Shown one piece after another: positions 681 to 54,410 of a DNA stretch of 64,000 nucleotides (positions are counted from its first letter, which is position 1; every line of letters begins with the position of its first letter). The position numbers and the translations under genes are program-made. The stretch is from Lytechinus variegatus (taxonomy: Eukaryota). The DNA lies in assembly GCF_018143015.1 (NCBI RefSeq), contig NC_054751.1, positions 28,385,438-28,449,437 on the forward strand. Reading direction: 5' to 3'. The notes under the pieces were generated by a model. The model worked only from the letters and a program-made list of their open reading frames with translations, ran no database searches and was not told the DNA's origin.

Positions 681-890
681 AATGAGTAACATTTATTTTC
701 GCCAGGTCATTTACACAATTCAAATAGGGATAAACGAGAATGATGACAAAATGAATGCGGGAACGGAAAATGAGAAAGAAAATTTATTGGTTCATAATTA
801 AGTTTCGCCGATAAAATCATACTTGTAAGTCTTGATTTTTTTCATTAAAAGTAGAATCCGAACTCATGATATTTTGGGTTTTTTCTTCAG

Positions 891-1618
891 GTTATGGGAA
901 CATCGCACCAGTCACGACCGGTGGGCGCATCTTCTGCATCTTCTACGGGGTCTTCGGCATCGCACTCCTACTCATCATCCTGGCCAGCATCGGGACCCTC
1001 TTAGCCCAGGGCGCCACCCTTACCTACCGGCGCATGCACACCATGGTCCAGAGTGTCAAGGGAGAGGAGCCCGAAGACGACATGCTCTATCAGCGTGATC
1101 GACGATCACAGGAGATCATCGACGAGATCTGGTCACCACCTCCCGAGGTTCCGAAGGATGGCGAGACGTTGCCGATCCACCGGGTCGATCTGCATGAGAC
1201 CGGGAAGAAGGGCAAGAAGGGTGGACGGAGGGTTGGCGGCGCCATCGGAAAAGGGGAGCAGGCACAGCCGGAAGAACCGCAGATACCTCTCATCGGGATC
1301 CTGATATTCGCGTTCCTGTACGTGTGTCTTCTGGCGCTGCTGATGCAGGCGTGGGAGTCGCAGTGGAACTACTTCGAAGCCTTCTATTTCTCCTTCATCA
1401 CCCTCACCACCATCGGGTTCGGTGACCTGGTTCCCGCGGATCAGAAGCAGCTCATAGCGTCCATCTTCTTCATTCTCCTCGGTATGGCCGTCATGTCGAT
1501 GTGCATCGCGCTCGCCCAGGACATGATCATCCAGAAGGTGGCTTGGTTGAGTGATAAGATCAGCGTCGTCGTCGCCGGCAACAAGCGAAGGAACGTAGAG
1601 GAAGAGGAGGAGTCATAG
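891..1618 (+). CDS. Last coding exon of a two-pore-domain (K2P/KCNK) potassium channel. It runs from pore loop 1 through TM2, a ~110-aa cytoplasmic loop, TM3, pore loop 2 and TM4 to a short C-terminus and the stop codon
   Basis: Translation of ORF 866..1618 contains SGYGNIAPVTTGGRIFCIFYGVFGIALL (filter 1 plus TM2) and FITLTTIGFGDLVP (filter 2). Two hydrophobic helices follow the pore loops. The acceptor is tttttcttcag|GTTATGGG at 890/891, with the frame entering in phase (codon ggt spans the junction). Stop TAG is at 1616-1618. Confidence 0.85.
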
Positions 1619-6889: not shown

Positions 6890-7170
6890 ATCTATAATCC
6901 ATCAGTATAACCTACATCATCATCTCCATCATTGTCGTCGTCATCATCATCTATCCTCCATCATCATCTTCTACCATCATCATCATCACCATCATAATTA
7001 TCTTCTATCATCTATCATCATCTATCATCATTATCACCATTTTCATCATCACCATCATCATCACCACCATCATCATCATCACCATCATCATCTTCTATCA
7101 TCCATCATCGCTATCATCATCATTATCACCATTTTCATTATTATCTCCATCATCATCATCAATCTAATAC
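6890..7170. repeat. (CAT/ATC)n imperfect microsatellite, ~280 bp
   Basis: catcatcatcaccatcat... This produces the poly-His artefact ORF 6810..7205. Confidence 0.9.
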
Positions 7171-17130: not shown

Positions 17131-18229
17131 ACAAGTGGAATGCCTCTGGCCGTCTCACCTGCATCACGCGGTTCAATATAGCAGCAGTGCTGACTTTGAA
17201 TACTACTCTTACTCGCACAAGATGTTCAGTGATACATGGTTACTCTTATGTCCACTTTTTATGAACTAGACCAATAATTACAGAGATATGATGGTTATTC
17301 AACAAAAAAACCCAACATGGCCAAATTTCATTGACCTTACATGACCTTTGACCTTGATCATGTGAACTGAAACTCGAACAGGATGTTCAGTGATACTTGA
17401 TTACTCTTATGTCCAAGTTTCATGAATCAGATCCATAAACTTTCAAAGTTATGATGGTAATTCAACAGATACACCCAATTCGGCCAAAGTTCATTGACCT
17501 TTGACCTTGGTCATGTGACCTGAAACACGCACAGGATGTTCAGTGATACTTGATTACTCTAATGTCCAAGTTTAATGAACTAGACCAATAAACTTTCAAA
17601 GTTATGATGGTAATTCAACAGATACTCCCGATTCGGCCAAAGTTCATTGACCCTAAATGACCTTTGACCTTAATCATGAGACCTGAAACTTGCACAAAAT
17701 GTTCAGTGATGCTTGATTACTATTATGTCCAAGTTTCATGAAACAGATCCATAAACTTTCAAAGTTATGATGGGAATTCAACAGATATCCCCAATTCGGC
17801 CAAAGTTCATTGACCCTAAATGACCTTTGACCTTGGTCATGTGACGTGAAACTCATGCAGGATCTTCAGTGATACTTGATTGACCTTATGTCCCAGTTTC
17901 ATGAACTAGGTCCATATATTTTCTAAGTTATGATGACATTTCAAAAACTTAACCTCAGGTTAAGATTTCGATGTTGATTCCTCCAACATGGTCTAAGTTC
18001 ATTGACCCTAAATGACCTTTGACCTTGGTCATGTGACATGAAACTCTAATAGGATGTTCAGTAATACTTGATTAACCTTATGCCAAGTTTTATTAACTAG
18101 GTCCATATACTTTCTAAGTTATGACATCATTTCAAAAACTTAACCTCAGGTTAAGATTTGATGTTGACGCCGCCGCCGTCGGAAAAGCGACACCTTTAGT
18201 CTCACTTTGCTTCGCAGGTGAGACAAAAA
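17131..18229 (+). mobile_element. Composite repeat, copy 1. It has the head aacaagtggaatgcctctggccgtctcacctgc, an internal ~150-175-bp tandem satellite of about 6 units, and the tail ...gccgccgtcggaaaagcg...cgcaggtgagacaaaa. GTCTCACCTGC near the head is the reverse complement of GCAGGTGAGAC at the tail
   Basis: The element recurs nearly intact at 30412-31524 (same strand) and 52817-54410 (opposite strand). The internal units share ...ttcattgacctttgaccttggtcatgtgacctgaaac...ggatgttcagtgatacttgattac... Confidence 0.85.
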
Positions 18230-18289: not shown

Positions 18290-19490
18290 AGGGCTGGGAC
18301 TAAAACCCGGGTACCCGAGTCCCGCCCGGAAGCGTCAGGTACCCGGGTAGAAAAATCAATACCCGATACCCGAAAATTGCTCACCTGTATAACGTACATT
18401 TGATTTGTATTGCGTAGTGTAAGACATGATTGTAAACTCATCACATAAGTACACAAGTCTCATTTTGAATCTCACCAATTACCCTCGAAATATCCTTAAA
18501 TATACTAGTTTTTCAAGTGATGATGATGTGACTGAGATCGTTCAATCGTCGCCATGTTTCTTTTGCAGCGCAGTGACGTCATCCAGCCACTGCGACGCAA
18601 GCCAATTTATGAATGAAAATATAGTAAGCATGCGCATTGCAAGCCTCAGCCCCACGCAGGACGTCAAAACGAGTCTGCAATACTCTGTCACCTCGTACCA
18701 ATATCGACCTAGAATTCCACTTTCCTTTATTTCATATAAATTATGAAAGGTATTCTCGGAGGATCTGTTTTCTCACCGATACCACGCAAGTAAGGAAATT
18801 TTATTACTTCTTGCTTTTCCGTCAAATCGTACGAAGTAGCGTCGATGTTGCATCGTGTTTGTGAGTTTGTAGAATCTATCGCTACGTGAACAAAGTCAAT
18901 TGATTTCCGGGTTTCGGAGCGTCAAATGCGCCAGCCAATCACGATCGTGTTACCATTTTCGGTTTATGATGAACTGAAAATGGTATCAAGAACGTTATTG
19001 GCTTGCGCCTCGTATGCTCTGAAACCCGGAAATCAATTGACTTTGTTCACGTAGCGATAGATTCTACAAACTCACGAACACGATGTAATATCGACGCTAC
19101 TTCGTAAGATTTTGACGGAAAAGCAAGAAGTAATAAAAATTTGCTTACCAGTGCGGTATCGGTGGGAAAACAAATCCTCTGAGAATACCTTTTATAATTC
19201 ATATAAAATATAGAAAAGTGGATTTCTAGGTCGATTTTGGTACGAGGTGACAGAGTATTGCAGACTCGTTTTGACGGAATACTGCGTGGGGCTGAGGCTT
19301 GCAATGCGCATGCTTACTATATTTTCATTCATAAATTGGCTTGCATTGCATTGGCTTGATGATGACGTCACCTATGGGGTTTTTCCACCAGTCATATTTC
19401 GAGCGACATAATTTTCGGGTACCCGGGTACCCGCCCGAAAATTACCACGGGTACCCGAAAAGAAAAAAACCTGAAAGTCCCAGGCCTAAT
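18290..19490. mobile_element. ~1.2-kb foldback (long palindromic) element centred near 18975. Each arm carries TGACGTCA (CRE), CCAAT and GCGCATGC(G) motifs, and the termini are GGGTACCCG-rich
   Basis: 18560-18960 is the near-exact reverse complement of 18985-19385. The outer ends gggctgggactaaaacccgggtacccg ... cgggtacccgaaaag...agtcccaggcct are inverted. The centre is diverged but keeps agccaatcacg against agccaataacg. Confidence 0.8.
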
Positions 19491-27636: not shown

Positions 27637-28970
27637 CTAAGACTCTATATTCAGTTCCAAATTCTGTCTCCTTTTTAGGTTGGCCGGATCATGTCCTGGT
27701 GGGTCAGCATCAAACTTGAACTTCACAGGTTCACATCTCCAATACTTATCCAATCCATTTTCGAAGCTGTGGACACTGGGTGCATTTACTAATTCACTAC
27801 TTAGGCTATTCCAAGGTTTCCTCATTCTTATGTAAAAGGAATTCTTACGTTTCTCAGTTACTGACCTCGGAATGTACAATTTTTTATCATGACCCCTGGT
27901 AGGCCCCTGCACCTGTCCCAAATCTGGCACTACCTCCTGGTCATACCTGTGAAATAACTTGTATGTTTCAATCATGTCTCCTCGCGCACGGCGATAAGCT
28001 AATGTAGGAAGTTTTAGTTGAATCAATCTTTGTTCATATGGGAGGTTCTTAACCTCAGGTACCAACTTAGTGGCCCTTCTTTGTACATTTTCTATTGCTT
28101 GAATATGTTTCTTTAAGTATGGACTCCATACTGCATGAGCATACTCCAAATGAGGTCTAATCAATGCTTTGTATAGGAGCAAGAAGTTCTCCTTGTGAAG
28201 ATAAACAAATGTTCTCCTAATTAGATTCATTAGCCTATTGGCTTTATTTATGTTTGACTGAAAGTGTTGGTCAAAACTAAGCTTTGTGTCGACAATCACT
28301 CCTAAATCTTTACTAGTTTCAACTTGTGATAGATTATGTGACGCATTATCATGAGTCATTGTATAGTCAATGAAATCATCATTTCTTTTACCTATTGTAA
28401 GTACACAACATTTATCCGGATGGAACTTTAATAGCCACTTGTCTGACCATGAAACTAGACGATCTAAGTCCGCTTGTAATAACTCAGCATCTCTGTCATT
28501 TTTTACATGCTTGTATAACTTGGTGTCATCTGCAAATAAATGAACAGTACTTGACAAAATCTGATCTGGTAGATCATTAATGTACATTACAAAAGCAGGG
28601 GTCCGAGGACACTCCCTTGCGGTATTCTGCTGGTTACATCAGCCCAGTCAGAGAACACACCATTCACACAAACACGGTGCTGTCGACCAACAAGAAATGA
28701 CCTGACCCACTCACATATGAGCTTCGATATGCCAAATCCCTCAACTTTGGCTAAAAGTCTTTGGTGTGGGACCTTATCAAAGGCTTTCATGAAATCTAGG
28801 TAGATGACATCAACTGCACCACCAACCTCCAACATATTTGTCCAATCATCTAACACATTGAGTAATTGCAACATTGTTGATCGTCCTGATACAAATCCAA
28901 ATTGTTTTGAACTGAGAAGGTTGTTGCTCTTCACATGCTCATATATTTCATCCCTCAAGATAGACTCCAT
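27637..28970 (-). pseudogene. Frameshifted reverse-transcriptase coding remnant of the LINE
   Basis: Two adjacent ORFs in different frames share continuous RT homology (fingers/palm motifs through the C-terminal domain). Confidence 0.8.
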
Positions 28971-30411: not shown

Positions 30412-31524
30412 ACAAGTGGAATGCCTCTGGCCGTCTCACCTGCATCACGCGGTTCAATATAGCAGCAGTGCTGACTTTGAATACTACTCTAACTCGCACA
30501 AGATGTTCGGTGATACATGGTTACTCTCATGTCCACTTTTTATGAACTAGACCAATAAACTTACAGAGATATGATGGTTATTCAACAAAAAAACCCAACA
30601 TGGCCAAAGTTCATTGACCTTACATGACCTTTGACCTTGATCATGTGACCTGAAACTCGAACAGGATGTTCAGTGATACTTGATTACTCTTATGTACAAG
30701 TTTCATGAATCAGATCCATAAACTTTCAAAGTTATGATGGTAATTCAACAGATACACCCAATTCGGCCAAAGTTCATTGACCTTTGACCTTGGTCATGAC
30801 CTTGGTCATGTGACCTGAAACGCGCACAGGGTGTTCAGCGATACTTGATTACTCTAATGTCCAAGTTTAATGAACTAGACCAATAAACTTTCAAAGTTAT
30901 GATGGTAATTCAACAGATACCCCCGATTCGGCAAAAGTTCATTGACCCTAAATGACCTTTGACCTTAATCATGAGACCTGAAACTTGCACAAAATTTTCA
31001 GTGATGCTTGATTACTATTGTGTCAAGTTTCATGAATCAGATCCATAAACTTTCAAAGTTATGATGGGAATTCAACAGATATCCCCAATTCGGCCAAAGT
31101 TCATTGACCCTAAATGACCTTTGACCTTGGTCATGTGACGTGAAACTCATGTAGGATGTTCAGTGATACTTGATTAACCTAATGTCCAAGTTTCATGAAC
31201 TAGGTCCATATATTTTCTAAGTTATGACATTTCAAAAACTTAACCTCAGGTTAAGATTTCGATGTTGATTCCTCCAACATGGTCTAAGTTCATTGACCCT
31301 AAATGACCTTTGACCTTGGTCATGTGACATGAAACTCTAATAGGATGTTCAGTAATACTTTATTAACCTTATGGCCAAGTTTTATTAACTAGGTCCATAT
31401 ACTTTCTAAGTTATGACCTCATTTCAAAAACTTAACCTCAGGTTAACATTTGATGTTGACGCCGCCGCCGCTGTCGGAAAAGCGGCGCCTATAGTCTCAC
31501 TTTGCTTCGCAGGTGAGACAAAAA
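30412..31524 (+). mobile_element. Composite satellite-bearing element, copy 2
   Basis: The head and tail are identical to copy 1, and the internal tandem units are collinear. Confidence 0.85.
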
Positions 31525-34302: not shown

Positions 34303-34546
<244 letters not shown>

Positions 34547-34551
<5 letters not shown>

Positions 34552-34882
34552 TCTTTTACATGTGTCACCAAGGATTGCATATATTGCATCTACAGACTGC
34601 TCCAAGTGCAAGGAGATCTACATCGGAGAAACGAAAAGGAGGCTAGCTGACAGAGTGACCGAACATCTTCGCTCCATCAGGATCAAGTCAGCAGGTTTGC
34701 CGGTAGCCCATCATTTTACCCAACCGGACCATAACATCGGGTACTTCAAGGTGTGCGTTCTTCTGGCTGGTTTTCGTTCAGATGGGATAAGGAAAGAGAA
34801 GGAGGAACGCCTCATCCACTCACTCGGCTTTCTCCAACCTGATGGAATGAATGCGTCTTTCCATTCTTTTCCCGTGGTGTGA
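34547..34882 (+). mobile_element. 3' fragment of a Penelope-like element (PLE) encoding the C-terminal GIY-YIG endonuclease domain
   Basis: Translation is [85 protein letters not shown]. This has the CxxC ... YIGET..R...R..EH ... (E)ERLIH.L....P.GMN architecture typical of the PLE endonuclease. It starts abruptly after a (TA)n tract. Stop TGA is at 34880-34882. Confidence 0.75.
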
Positions 34883-46479: not shown

Positions 46480-47193
46480 TTCCTTTCGTATTATTTATGA
46501 TGATAGTTTTAGCTTTCTTCCTCTTTTTTCTTCCTATCTTTCTTTCCTTCTTTCATTTCAATCTTTCTTTGTTTCTTCCCTAATTTTTTTTGTTACTATC
46601 TTTTTTATTTTCCTTTTTTTCTTTAATTCGTTCTCTCTATCTTAAAAATATTTTTCTCCATTTTTTTCTCTTTCTTTCTTTTTTTCTTTCTTTTTTTCTT
46701 TCTTTCTTTCCTTCTTTCTTTCCTTCTTTCCTTCCTTCCTTCCTTCTTTTTTGATATTTTTCTTTCTTTAATTCTTGAGTCCATCCATCCTATATTCATC
46801 TCTTCCTTTCTTTCCTTCCTTTTACCCTTTTCTTTCTCATTCTTTGTTACTTTCTTTGTTTCTTTCTTCCACCCATCATTTATTACCTTTTTATTTCTTC
46901 TTTTCTTTGTCTCTCAGTCTTTCTTTTTTTCTTCCTTTCATCTTCTCTTTTACCTTTTCTTTTTTATATTGCGTATTTCCTTCCTTTATTTATTTATTTC
47001 CTTCTATCTATCATTTTACCTTTCTTCCTTCTTTCAATCCTTCCTCTCTTTCTTTCTTTTGTCCTTCTTTCCATCTCTCCTTTAACCCTTTCTTTTTTAT
47101 TGCTTCTTCTTTCTTTCCTTATACTACTTTCTGGATTTGTTCTTTCTTTCTGTATTGCTTGCTTCATTTCTTTCCTTCATTTCTTTTTTCTTT

Positions 47194-47225
<32 letters not shown>

Positions 47226-47468
47226 ATTTTTGTTCCTTTTTTATTCCTTCCTTCCTTTCCTTCTTTAGTTCTTTCTTTTTCATTCCTTCACATCTATCCT
47301 TTCTTTACTTTATCTTTTTTACTTCCTTCCTTTTTTATTCTTTCTTTCTTTTCCTCCCTTTCCTTCCTTCCTTTCTTCCTTCCTTCCTTTCTCTTATTTT
47401 TTCCTTTTCCTTCCTTCCTTCCTTTCTTTCCTTCTTCGTTTCTGTCTTGCTTTCTTTTTGTCCTTCAT
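46480..47468. repeat. ~1-kb polypyrimidine (TTTC/TTCC/CTTT)n tract on the plus strand
   Basis: Almost no purines over ~1 kb. It produces the artefact ORFs 46775..47485 and 47100..47504. Confidence 0.9.
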
Positions 47469-49424: not shown

Positions 49425-51172
49425 ACCTCTCTTATCCGGACACGTTGGGACCAGCACCAATCCGGATAAGGGATTTATCCGGATCTGGGAGACCCAATAT
49501 TAAATACACGCAGCTGCGCTGCCGGCTGCCTCCCCAGGCTACCGGCGGTAGCTACACTATTGTAGTGGGCGTACGGTAAAGATAATATTCACTGCAGAGT
49601 CAGTGCAAATTATAGGCAGTGTTTTTATGGAAATGAAATCGATCGATAGCCAAAACTCTTGGATAATTTACCTGCTAAAATGACTGAGGTATACAACCAG
49701 CATACCTCGAAAGAAAGAGAATGACTCGATGAAACCAAGTTTTAAAATTAGATCATCGCGGCGGGTATCGCAGCTACGCAATGTTATACAAATAGCGAAT
49801 AGGCATGAGTGCAATGGTGCAAGATTTCGCATGAGGTGAAAGAAAGATGCTCTATTCAACGAGGCGTTAGCCGAGTTGAATAGAGCATTTCTTTCTTTCA
49901 CCGAATGCGAAATCTCGCACCATTGCACGAATAAGAATATTCGCTATTTCTGTTGTACAACGCCTCGGAATCTAGCGAAAATATGAAAAAAGAAGGGTTT
50001 TTCCCTCCAGTAATCTATGAAAAAGGAGCAAAAATATTGAAAGCGAAAAGCAAAATCCCACAAGCGCACATGATCTTGGACAGCATTGCGCATTTAGCCA
50101 GCGGGTTGTACGCGCATTGTCATCTTATTCAATGAAATCGCATTGTGACGTCACCTCCTAAAGCCGTGCAACGGTACATTTTGGATGGTACGTCTTGTGT
50201 GCAACGGTACGAATGTGTGACATTCAGCCTTCCATTTGATCGCGTACAACAAGCTAAGTAGGCGTTGTACAATATACAAATAGCGAATAGGCATGAGTGC
50301 AATGGTGCAAGATTTCGCATGAGGTGAAAGAAAGATGCTCTATTCAACGAGGCGTTAGCCGAGTTGAATAGAGCATTTCTTTCTTTCACCGAATGCGAAA
50401 TCTCGCACCATTGCACGAATAAGAATATTCGCTATTTCTGTTGTACAACGCCTCGGAATCTAGCGAAAATATGAAAAAAGAAGGGTTTTTCCCTCCAGTA
50501 ATCTATGAAAAAGGAGCAAAAATATTGAAAGCGAAAAGCAAAATCCCACAAGCGCACATGATCTTGGACAGCATTGCGCATTTAGCCAGCGGGTTGTACG
50601 CGCATTGTCATCTTATTCAATGAAATCGCATTGTGACGTCACCTCCTAAAGCCGTGCAACGGTACATTTTGGATGGTACGTCTTGTGTGCAACGGTACGA
50701 ATGTGTGACATTCAGCCTTCCATTTGATCGCGTACAACAAGCTAAGTAGGCGTTGTACAACAGCCATTGTTACACTGACTGTAGGCTCAAACATGATAGA
50801 TGGCGCTGTCCGTATTGAGGCCTAAAGTTAGCTAGCAAGGCATGTGTTGTTTTTCCCGCGAAGCAAAAAGAGAAACGTGATGAAATGTTTGCACTGCGCC
50901 CTGATTTACTGGAAATTATCATTCCTAAAGTTCTTTTGGTGATTTGGGTGAGATATTTTCATGAAATATATGTTTGGTGTAGGGTGACTATGTTGGGAAA
51001 TATATGTAATCAAAGTGAGTTTACATATAGGATTGAGTTTAGATTGAAATCTTATTTCCTCACGTACCGGTACTAGATTAAAAAAAAAAAAAAAAAAATC
51101 TCGGCAAGTGTGCGTCCGGATAATAGAGAGATCCGGATAAGGGGAGGCCGGATAAGAGAGGTCGGACTGTAT
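49425..51172. mobile_element. TIR-bounded DNA element (TIR TACAGTCCGACCTCTCTTATCCGG) containing an exact tandem duplication of a 488-bp internal unit. Each unit carries a ~60-bp-arm hairpin
   Basis: The left end ggtacagtccgacctctcttatccgga and the right end tccggataagagaggtcggactgta are inverted. Units 49786-50273 and 50274-50761 are identical, which explains the duplicated ORFs 49668/50129 and 49953/50441. Confidence 0.8.
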
Positions 51173-52816: not shown

Positions 52817-54410
52817 TTTTTGTCTCACCTGCGAAGCAAAGTGAGACTATAGGCGCCGCTTTTCCGACGGCGGCGGCGGCGTCAACATCAAATCTTAACC
52901 TGAGGTTAAGTTTTTGAGATGACATCATAACTTAGAAAGTATATGGACCTAGTTAATAAAACTTGGCCATAAGGTTAATCAAGTATTACTGAACATCCTA
53001 TTAGAGTTTCATGTCACATGACCAAGGTCAAAGGTCATTTAGGGTCAATGAACTTAGACCATGTTGGAGGAATCAACATCGAAATCTTAACCTGAGGTTA
53101 AGTTTTTGAAATGTCATCATAACTTAAAAAATATATGGACCTAGTTCATGAAACTTGGACATAAGGTTAATCAAGTATCAATGAACATCCTGCATGAGTT
53201 TCACGTCACATGACCAAGGTCAAAGGTCATTTAGGGTCAATGAACTTTGGACGAATTGGGGATATCTGTTGAATTCCCATCATAACTTTGAAAGTTTATG
53301 GATCTGATTCATGAAACTTGGACATAATAGTAATCAAGCATCACTGAACATTTTGTGCAAGTTTCAGGTCACATGATCAAGGTCAAAGGTCATTTAGGGT
53401 CAATGAACTTTGGCCGAATTGGGGATATCTGTTGAATTCCCATCATAACTTTGAAAGTTTATGGATCTGATTCATGAAACTTGGACATAATAGTAATCAA
53501 GCATCACTGAACATTTTGTGCAAGTTTCAGGTCTCATGATTAAGGTCAAAGGTCATTTAGGGTCAATGAACTTTGGCCGAATCGGGGGTATCTGTTGAAT
53601 TACCATCATAACTTTGAAAGTTTATGGATCTGATTCATGAAACTTGGACATAATAGTAATCAAGCATCACTGAACATTTTGTGCAAGTTTCAGGTCACAT
53701 GATCAAGGTCAAAGGTCATTTAGGGTCAATGAACTTTGGCCGAATTGGGGATATCTGTTGAATTCCCATCATAACTTTGAAAGTTTATGGATCTGATTCA
53801 TGAAACTTGGACATAATAGTAATCAAGCATCACTGAACATTTTGTGCAAGTTTCAGGTCTCATGATTAAGGTCAAAGGTCATTTAGGGTCAATGAACTTT
53901 GGCCGAATTGGGGGTATCTGTTGAATTACCATCATAACTTTGAAAGTTTATTGGTCTAGTTCGTTAAACTTGGAAATTAGAGTAACCAAGTATCACTGAA
54001 CATCCTGTGCGTGTTTCAGGTCACATGTCCAAGGTCAAAGGTCAATGAACTTTAGCCGAATTGGGTGTATCTGTTGAATTACCATCATAACTTTGAAAGT
54101 TTATGGATCTGATTCATGAAACTTGTACATAAGAGTAATCAAGTATCACTGAACATCCTGTTCCAGTTTCAGGTCACATGATCAAGGTCAAAGGTCATGT
54201 AAGGTCAATGAACTTTGGCCATGTTGGGGTTTTTTGTTGAATAACCATCATATCTCTGTAAGTTTATTGGTCTAGTTCATAAAAAGAGGACATAAGAGTA
54301 ACCATGTATCACTGAACATCTTGTGCGAGTTAGAGTAGTATGCAAAGTCAGCACTGCTGCTATATTGAACCGCGTGATGCAGGTGAGACGGCCAGAGGCA
54401 TTCCACTTGT
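52817..54410 (-). mobile_element. Composite satellite-bearing element, copy 3 (reverse orientation). It is longer because it has more internal tandem units
   Basis: This is the reverse complement of the head and tail (ttgtctcacctgcgaagcaaagtgagac ... gcaggtgagacggccagaggcattccacttgtt). About 8-9 internal units of ~174 bp are visible. Confidence 0.85.

What the first reader, a model, noticed from the sequence alone, without database searches (positions are those of the whole stretch)
17131..18229. Three copies of a composite element carrying its own internal ~150-175-bp tandem satellite
Copies at 17131-18229 (+), 30412-31524 (+) and 52817-54410 (-) share a unique head (aacaagtggaatgcctctggccgtctcacctgc) and tail (gccgccgtcggaaaagcg...gcaggtgagacaaaa). 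They also share a block of tandem units rich in TGACCTTTGACC (nuclear-receptor DR-like half-sites, ttgacctttgaccttggtcatgtgacc). The units vary in number between copies (about 6 against about 9). GTCTCACCTGC in the head is the reverse complement of GCAGGTGAGAC at the tail, suggesting subterminal inverted repeats of a non-autonomous DNA transposon that carries and disperses a satellite. Two copies sit in introns of annotated genes here.
Basis: seen in the sequence. Interest (0 to 1): 0.6.

Follow-up and report, generated by a model that had tools for sequence, protein, structure and literature searches.

The report
Sea-urchin Helentron-type transposon carrying tandem repeats
Three dispersed, about 97% identical copies of a roughly 1.1-1.6 kb non-coding mobile element in the green sea urchin (Lytechinus variegatus) match the published layout of HINE/DINE-1/pearl-type non-autonomous Helentron (rolling-circle) transposons, which are already known to carry satellite-like repeats, so this is an ordinary new family of a known kind.

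Summary
Three copies sit at 17131-18229 (+), 30412-31524 (+) and 52817-54410 (-). Their ends are base-identical, their flanks are unrelated, and shared parts are 96.8-97.5% identical. Each carries an ordered array of 153-192-bp monomers: 6 counting partial ones in two copies, 9 in the third. The window is Lytechinus variegatus.

Read on the opposite strand, each copy follows the published HINE (non-autonomous Helentron) plan:
- a run of five T;
- an 11-bp 5' subTIR (subterminal inverted repeat), GTCTCACCTGC;
- a 7-bp inverted repeat 8 nt further in;
- a length-variable (GGC)3-4 microsatellite;
- the tandem monomers;
- the 3' subTIR;
- a short palindrome, then CCACTTGTT.

There is no target-site duplication, and T runs lie at both ends.

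Elements of this type are described in Drosophila, bivalves (pearl, Cg_HINE) and the sea urchin S. purpuratus (Tsp).

I could not reach the rest of the genome, so three things remain untested: an autonomous partner, empty sites and copy number.

One mild curiosity remains. A perfect DR1 nuclear-receptor site (AGGTCAAAGGTCA) is invariant in all 18 full monomers. Its function is untested.

Verdict: new member of a known kind, low interest.

The parts
17131..18229 (-). Copy 1, whole element (1099 bp; the 3' T run may extend to 17129)
18225..18229 (-). Copy 1: 5' terminal run of five T
   Evidence: exactly five T in all three copies
18214..18224 (-). Copy 1: 5' subTIR GTCTCACCTGC, 5 nt from the 5' end
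18199..18205 (-). Copy 1: IR GTGAGAC, complementary to the first 7 nt of the 5' subTIR and 8 nt downstream of it; the two form a hairpin
   Evidence: (z -2.2)
18169..18177 (-). Copy 1: (GGC)3 microsatellite in the left flank
   Evidence: its length differs between copies
17211..18168 (-). Copy 1: central tandem array, monomers u0-u5 of 153-192 bp
17152..17162 (-). Copy 1: 3' subTIR GCAGGTGAGAC, 21-23 nt from the 3' end
17142..17150 (-). Copy 1: short palindrome GCC-AGA-GGC just after the 3' subTIR (weak)
   Evidence: (z about 0)
30412..31524 (-). Copy 2, whole element (1113 bp). Features: five T 31520-31524; 5' subTIR 31509-31519; IR 31494-31500; (GGC)3+AGC 31461-31472; array 30492-31460; 3' subTIR 30433-30443; palindrome 30423-30431
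30785..30810 (.). Copy 2 only: 12-bp palindrome TGACCTTGGTCA duplicated inside monomer u2
52817..54410 (+). Copy 3, whole element (1594 bp; the 3' T run continues to 54418). Features: five T 52817-52821; 5' subTIR 52822-52832; IR 52841-52847; (GGC)4 52869-52880; array 52881-54330; 3' subTIR 54379-54389; palindrome 54391-54399
53248..53736 (+). Copy 3: three extra 163-bp monomers (u4-u6) absent from copies 1 and 2, consistent with duplication of a u3-type dimer (u5 is 100% identical to u3)

Best explanation
These are three insertions of one family of HINE, a non-autonomous Helentron (Helitron2-type rolling-circle DNA transposon) of Lytechinus variegatus.

On its canonical strand the element reads: five T; an 11-bp 5' subTIR (subterminal inverted repeat); 8 nt; a 7-bp IR that pairs with the subTIR; a GC-rich stretch with a (GGC)n microsatellite; 5-8 full monomers of about 163-192 bp plus partial ones; about 50 bp of unique sequence; the 3' subTIR; a short palindrome; and ATTCCACTTGT followed by one or more T.

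Inferred mechanism (not shown here): a Rep/helicase(/endonuclease) protein from an autonomous Helentron elsewhere in the genome recognises the subTIRs and hairpins. It mobilises the element through a single-stranded intermediate and inserts it in T-rich/TT sites without duplicating the target. The monomer array travels as cargo in a fixed order. It changes length afterwards, or in the master copy, by slippage or unequal exchange, as in copy 3, which has three extra monomers. That is how satellite-like repeats become scattered through euchromatin.
For: Shown here:
- Three copies have ends identical to the base and no similarity beyond them.
- The flanks are unique, and no fragments of the element occur elsewhere in the window.
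- Orthologous parts are 96.8-97.5% identical in all three pairs, which is star-like.
- Monomers are position-specific. Orthologous monomers are 96-99% identical and paralogous ones 56-93%, so the array was already fixed in the source element.
- The 11-bp perfect inverted repeat is placed asymmetrically: 5 nt from one end and 21-23 nt from the other.
- An IR complementary to the 5' subTIR lies 8 nt away. The resulting hairpin is more stable than shuffles, with z -2.2 and -3.9 in the two copies folded.
- A microsatellite next to that end varies in length among copies.
- Both ends carry at least 2 T.
- No TSD is found at any boundary offset.

From the literature:
- This is the HINE/DINE-1 layout: subTIR, IR, microsatellite, central repeats, 3' subTIR plus palindrome, TT preference, no TSD.
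- Monomers of 140-180 bp in arrays of up to about 5 are typical of Cg_HINE.
- The same modular plan is reported for the pearl family, including elements of the sea urchin S. purpuratus.
- Helentron proteins occur in S. purpuratus.
Against: - No autonomous Helentron with the same ends could be looked for. A search built from sea-urchin Helentron motifs returned no urchin protein.
- No empty site was available, so the TT target and the exact ends are consistent with the data but not proven.
- The palindrome after the 3' subTIR has only a 3-bp stem (GCC-AGA-GGC) and is no more stable than shuffled sequence.
- The microsatellite is a trinucleotide, whereas most described relatives have tetranucleotides.
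- Only three copies were seen.
Confidence: 0.8

Rival explanations
1. A cut-and-paste MITE (a DDE-transposase-dependent non-autonomous element) with subterminal inverted repeats and a 2-bp AA/TT target-site duplication. This was the older reading of pearl-like elements.
For: It has an 11-bp inverted repeat near both ends. Each copy is bracketed by A/T runs that could hide an AA/TT duplication. The clam DTC84 paper described such elements as MITE-like with a putative AA TSD.
Against: The inverted repeats are not terminal and sit asymmetrically, 5 nt against 21-23 nt from the ends. No TSD appears at any offset apart from the element's own A/T run. The extra features, namely the IR next to the 5' repeat, the microsatellite and the T-run ends, are those that Thomas et al. 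tied to Helentron partners sharing 98% identity with DINE-1.
Confidence: 0.08
2. A non-autonomous element of some other or undescribed class that merely resembles a HINE in layout.
For: The 3' palindrome is weak. No partner was identified. Only three copies were examined.
Against: Seven of eight HINE features are present in the right order and orientation.
Confidence: 0.08
3. A SINE-like retroposon whose run of five A (on the reader's strand) is a short poly(A) tail.
For: On the + strand of copies 1 and 2 the element ends in AAAAA.
Against: No tRNA, 5S or 7SL similarity and no Rfam hit. The A run is exactly 5 in all copies. No flanking direct repeats. The paired subterminal inverted repeats are unexplained by retroposition.
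Confidence: 0.02
4. Segmental duplication or local satellite spread rather than transposition.
For: The three copies lie within 37 kb.
Against: Similarity stops at the same base in all copies and the flanks are unrelated. One copy is inverted. Every copy keeps both specific ends.
Confidence: 0.01

Closest known systems
Cg_HINE elements of the Pacific oyster (Vojvoda Zeljko et al. 2020, PMC7492417), annotated in Repbase as Helitron-N*_CGi
   Same: Layout: left flank with an 11-12-bp subTIR, a 7-12-bp complementary IR 1-12 bp away and a microsatellite; a central array of 140-180-bp satellite-like monomers, about 2-5 per array and all in one orientation; right flank with the 3' subTIR followed by a palindrome; T-rich/TT insertion sites and no TSD; copies found in non-coding parts of genes.
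   Different: Different phylum. No sequence comparison was possible because the consensus sequences are not held as text. The microsatellite here is (GGC)n rather than mostly tetranucleotide GTCY-type. The 3' palindrome here is minimal.
DINE-1 and HINEs of Drosophila, mite and Culex (Thomas, Vadnagara and Pritham 2014, PMC4067079)
   Same: 12-15-bp subTIRs, 2-4 nt from the 5' end and tens of nt from the 3' end; an IR nested against the 5' subTIR; a microsatellite; central repeats; a 3' stem-loop; runs of 2-5 T at the boundaries whose number varies between copies; no target modification.
   Different: The subTIR sequence is unrelated to any listed family. The subTIR is 11 bp and lies 21-23 nt, not 38-60 nt, from the 3' end. 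For those families the Helentron partners were found; here none could be sought.
[quoted passage not shown] 1985, as cited in PMC4067079 and PMC3879986)
   Same: [quoted passage not shown] They are reported in a sea urchin and were later reassigned to DINE-1-like/Helentron elements.
   Different: The original Tsp papers are not held, so neither sequence nor detailed structure could be compared. This is a different urchin genus.
Canonical Helitrons
   Same: Presumed rolling-circle mobilisation, no TSD, and non-autonomous derivatives that often carry tandem repeats.
   Different: No 5'-TC / 3'-CTRR ends, no A|T target and no 16-20-nt hairpin about 11 bp from the 3' end (definition; sequence).

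Membership tests
HINE / non-autonomous Helentron | Subterminal inverted repeats of at least 11 bp, identical within a family | tested here: met
   GTCTCACCTGC / GCAGGTGAGAC, 11 bp, perfect in all three copies and found nowhere else in the window. Criterion.
HINE / non-autonomous Helentron | Asymmetric placement: the 5' subTIR a few nt from the 5' end, the 3' subTIR tens of nt from the 3' end | tested here: met
   5 nt (five T) against 21-23 nt. The published mite range for the 3' side is 38-60 nt, so this element is at the short end.
HINE / non-autonomous Helentron | Short IR complementary to the 5' subTIR, 1-22 bp away (DINE-1/Cg_HINE type) | tested here: met
   GTGAGAC lies 8 nt downstream. 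Hairpin z -2.2 (copy 1) and -3.9 (copy 2) against shuffles.
HINE / non-autonomous Helentron | Microsatellite in the left flank, variable between copies | tested here: met
   (GGC)3, (GGC)3+AGC and (GGC)4 in the three copies. It is a trinucleotide; Cg_HINE allows 3-8-nt motifs.
HINE / non-autonomous Helentron | Central tandem repeats in a constant orientation relative to the flanks | tested here: met
   Monomers of 153-192 bp, 6 or 9 per copy counting partial ones, in the same order and orientation in all copies.
HINE / non-autonomous Helentron | Palindrome or stem-loop after the 3' subTIR, 8-35 bp from the 3' end | tested here: inconclusive
   Only GCC-AGA-GGC, 11-13 nt from the end. Its folding energy is not different from shuffles, z about 0.2.
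HINE / non-autonomous Helentron | No target-site duplication; T runs at both boundaries and a TT target | tested here: met
   No TSD at any offset within 8 nt either side of the boundaries. Five T at the 5' end and 2, 3 or 9 T at the 3' end. The TT target itself needs empty sites, which were not available.
HINE / non-autonomous Helentron | An autonomous Helentron (Rep/helicase, with or without endonuclease) in the same genome sharing the subTIRs and the 3' 60 bp | not testable with these tools
   No access to the rest of the L. variegatus genome. The motif-based protein search gave no urchin hit, the contig look-ups failed, and the metagenome scans were empty.
Canonical Helitron | 5'-TC and 3'-CTRR ends, insertion between A and T, a 16-20-nt hairpin about 11 bp from the 3' end | tested here: not met
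   The ends are TTTTTGTCTC... and ...CCACTTGTT. No such hairpin was found.
Cut-and-paste MITE | Terminal inverted repeats and a fixed-length target-site duplication | tested here: not met
   The repeats are subterminal and asymmetric. No TSD was found. A hidden AA/TT duplication cannot be formally excluded without empty sites.
SINE | Pol III-derived head (tRNA/5S/7SL), variable A-rich tail, variable-length TSDs | tested here: not met
   No tRNA or Rfam match. The A run is constantly 5. No TSD was found.

The most novel reading that the evidence does not exclude
The one block that never varies in the monomers is TGACCTTTGACCTT, which on the other strand is the perfect DR1 site AGGTCAAAGGTCA (the HNF4 / COUP-TF / RXR-type consensus, from general knowledge). 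It is exact in 18 of 18 full monomers although paralogous monomer types are only 70-93% identical, and it is the longest invariant run (P about 0.004 by a crude column shuffle). The most novel reading not excluded is that this Helentron family spreads arrays of 5-8 high-affinity nuclear-receptor sites through gene regions of the sea urchin, and that the site is kept by selection, acting either on the host as cis-regulatory input or on the element itself. A second open point is that three copies within 37 kb would imply either roughly 10^4 or more copies genome-wide or local re-insertion.
Probability: 0.1. Interest if true: 0.55.

Novelty: new member of a known kind. Interest (0 to 1): 0.2.

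Why it matters
It matters little beyond annotation. It supplies a clean, fully dissected example of a tandem-repeat-carrying Helentron derivative in Lytechinus variegatus, a developmental model. This extends to a second urchin genus a class documented in Drosophila, bivalves and S. purpuratus. It also illustrates how satellite-like arrays become scattered in gene-rich DNA and change length, by three monomers in one copy here. For genome scans the practical lesson is that such elements should not be tested for target-site duplications. The perfectly conserved DR1 in each monomer is a cheap hypothesis to test against ATAC or ChIP data in urchin embryos.

Tried and rejected
1. Extra copies through the protein database. 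I searched with a 60-aa ORF from a monomer and found no candidates.
2. Exact-pattern scans of metagenome contigs, with the monomer core and with the 5' hairpin: 0 hits each.
3. Fetching the locus, other haplotypes or empty sites by exact-protein look-up. I tried the K2P exon ORF, the annotated K2P protein P0001, ORFs next to copies 1 and 3, and the RT ORF next to copy 2. None is on record.
4. Autonomous partner. I concatenated the OCR-corrected sea-urchin Helentron Rep and PIF1 motifs from the supplement of PMC4067079 into a 177-aa query. It returned only weak PIF1-like hits and none from an urchin.
5. Sequence comparison with the Cg_HINE consensus sequences or Tsp. The Cg_HINE table is illegible and its figures are not held. 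The two 1985 Tsp papers are not held.
6. A full-text search for the subTIR string returned only unrelated primers.
7. Paralogous empty sites or element fragments inside the window: none.
8. My first test of DR1 conservation was spoiled by a misaligned monomer that carries a 12-bp duplication. I redid it.

Rejected readings: segmental duplication, SINE, canonical Helitron and classical MITE. The reasons are given under the rival explanations and the membership test.

Full report
Observation. I read the three stated intervals. The head 28-mer and the tail 24-mer each occur exactly three times with no mismatch, against none expected. They lie at 17131-18229 (+), 30412-31524 (+) and 52817-54410 (-). 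TRF finds a 163-bp period with 4.5, 4.5 and 7.5 copies, and a 189-192-bp variant with 1.9 copies at the tail side. TGACCTTTGACCTT occurs 5, 5 and 8 times, all exact, against 0.04 expected. An alignment with 100-bp flanks shows similarity stopping at the same bases in all three copies, with nothing shared outside. BLAST of 500-bp flanks and of joined 'empty-site' flanks against the window finds no paralogue, and the element leaves no fragments elsewhere.

Organism. The ORF at 866-1618 is a two-pore potassium channel exon, 100% identical to a Lytechinus variegatus protein. The next-best hits come from other echinoderms. The window is green sea urchin DNA.

Anatomy.
- Exactly five T.
- The 11-bp GTCTCACCTGC (5' subTIR).
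- An 8-nt spacer, then GTGAGAC, which pairs with the first 7 nt of the subTIR. The hairpin is more stable than shuffles, with z -2.2 and -3.9 in the two copies folded.
- A GC-rich stretch ending in (GGC)3, (GGC)3+AGC or (GGC)4.
- The monomer array, followed by about 50 bp of unique sequence.
- GCAGGTGAGAC (3' subTIR).
- G, then GCC-AGA-GGC, a minimal palindrome no more stable than shuffles.
- ATTCCACTTGT followed by 1, 2 or 8 further T.

The inverted repeat is therefore 5 nt from one end and 21-23 nt from the other. A scan of all boundary offsets within 8 nt either side finds no target-site duplication. The only 'matches' are the element's own ACAA/TTGT and T runs.

The array. Cutting at AAGTTCATTGACC gives monomers u0-u5 in copies 1 and 2 and u0-u8 in copy 3, with lengths of 153-192 bp. 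Monomers are position-specific: orthologous monomers in different copies are 96-99% identical and paralogous ones 56-93%. The ordered array therefore existed in the source element and was copied as a whole. Orthologous parts of the three copies are 97.1, 97.5 and 96.8% identical, a star-like pattern. Copy 3 has three extra 163-bp monomers (53248-53736). Its u5 is 100% identical to u3, and u4 and u6 are 96-98% identical to u3, which is consistent with duplication of a u3-type dimer inside the array. Copy 2 alone has a 12-bp duplication of the palindrome TGACCTTGGTCA. The two monomers next to the microsatellite are a 189-192-bp variant with an extra segment of about 29 bp.

What it is. This is the published layout of HINEs, the non-autonomous Helentrons.
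- In oyster Cg_HINE, the left flank has an 11-12-bp subTIR, a 7-12-bp complementary IR 1-12 bp away and a microsatellite. A central array of 140-180-bp satellite-like monomers follows, and the right flank has the 3' subTIR followed by a palindrome. Insertion is in T-rich/TT sites with no TSD, and copies lie in non-coding parts of genes.
- For DINE-1 and mite/Culex HINEs, Thomas et al. describe subTIRs 2-4 nt from the 5' end and tens of nt from the 3' end, runs of 2-5 T at the boundaries that vary between copies, and no target modification. Their partner Helentrons share the ends.
- The same modular plan was described earlier as the 'pearl' family. That description includes elements of the sea urchin S. 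purpuratus (Tsp, Cohen et al. 1985), which Thomas et al. list as DINE-1-like. Helentron proteins are present in S. purpuratus.

Of eight defining features, six are met outright. The target-site feature is met in part: there is no TSD and T runs lie at both ends, but the TT target itself needs empty sites. The 3' palindrome is present but too weak to count. The autonomous partner could not be tested. The features of a canonical Helitron, a classical MITE and a SINE are not met.

Mechanism. What is shown is three independent insertions of a composite unit, with fixed ends, no TSD, T-run junctions, a fixed monomer order and later changes in array length. What is inferred from the family is the rest. 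A Helentron Rep/helicase would mobilise the element in trans through a single-stranded, rolling-circle-type intermediate, with the subTIRs and hairpins as recognition signals. The array would grow and shrink by slippage, unequal exchange or aberrant rolling-circle replication, as reviewed.

The half-sites. Each monomer carries TGACC(C/T)...TGACCTTTGACCTT(GGTCA)...TGACC. RGGTCA half-sites number 16 per kb inside the copies against 0.8 per kb outside. On the other strand the core is AGGTCAAAGGTCA, a perfect DR1 (general knowledge of nuclear-receptor sites). After correcting one misaligned monomer, this 14-bp block is the longest invariant run across all 18 full monomers. A crude column shuffle that ignores relatedness gives P about 0.004. 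The neighbouring palindrome GGTCA arm is not conserved: it reads GATCA or AATCA in some monomer types. Conserved boxes in HINE monomers are also reported in oyster. This is a hint of constraint or homogenisation, not evidence of receptor binding.

What could not be done. No route to the rest of the L. variegatus genome worked. Copy number, empty sites, insertion polymorphism and the autonomous partner all remain open. The Cg_HINE consensus sequences and the Tsp papers were not readable. The held literature contains no description of Helentron-derived elements or satellitomes in Lytechinus. The claim that two copies lie in introns could not be checked.

Verdict. The class, however, is Helentron/HINE, the orientation is reversed, and the proposed TSD test would have wrongly refuted it. 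This is a new family of a well-known kind, in a phylum where such elements were first seen in 1985. Interest is low at 0.2, with the invariant DR1 as the only point worth a cheap follow-up.

Noticed in passing
window 18579-19362: A long near-perfect palindrome (foldback-like) with arms of about 390 nt in four collinear blocks, 88-97% complementary and centred at 18968. It lies 350 bp from copy 1 and may be a foldback or hairpin element.
   Followed up: partly
window 49785-50760: A 488-bp unit repeated exactly 2.0 times at 100% identity. Each unit begins with a hairpin-like inverted repeat of about 150 nt. This is either a very recent tandem duplication or an assembly artefact.
   Followed up: partly
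window 27637-28970 (-): Two adjacent ORFs of 316 and 127 aa with reverse-transcriptase (RVT_1) matches. This is a decayed, frame-shifted retroelement 1.4 kb from copy 2; the non-LTR type is my guess, not tested.
   Followed up: partly
window 866-1618 (+): An exon of a two-pore-domain potassium channel (Ion_trans_2), 100% identical to a Lytechinus variegatus protein. This identifies the organism.
   Followed up: yes
window 46513-47457: A degenerate (CTTT)n-derived tract of about 945 bp with extreme strand asymmetry: GC skew -0.34 and AT skew -0.40 in the 2-kb bin that contains it.
   Followed up: no
window 6915-7161: (CAT)n of about 80 units, 71% matches. It reads as a His-rich ORF and is probably only a microsatellite.
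   Followed up: no
window 34439-34882 (+), next to (TA)49 at 34446-34543: An ORF containing ...[23 protein letters not shown]..., which from memory resembles a GIY-YIG nuclease motif as found in Penelope-like elements. Pfam gave no hit at E<=0.01, so this is unconfirmed.
   Followed up: partly
window 17131-54410 (the three copies): Three copies of one family lie within 37 kb. Assuming a genome of roughly 0.9 Gb (from memory), chance alone would need about 10^4 or more copies; otherwise the copies are locally clustered.
   Followed up: no
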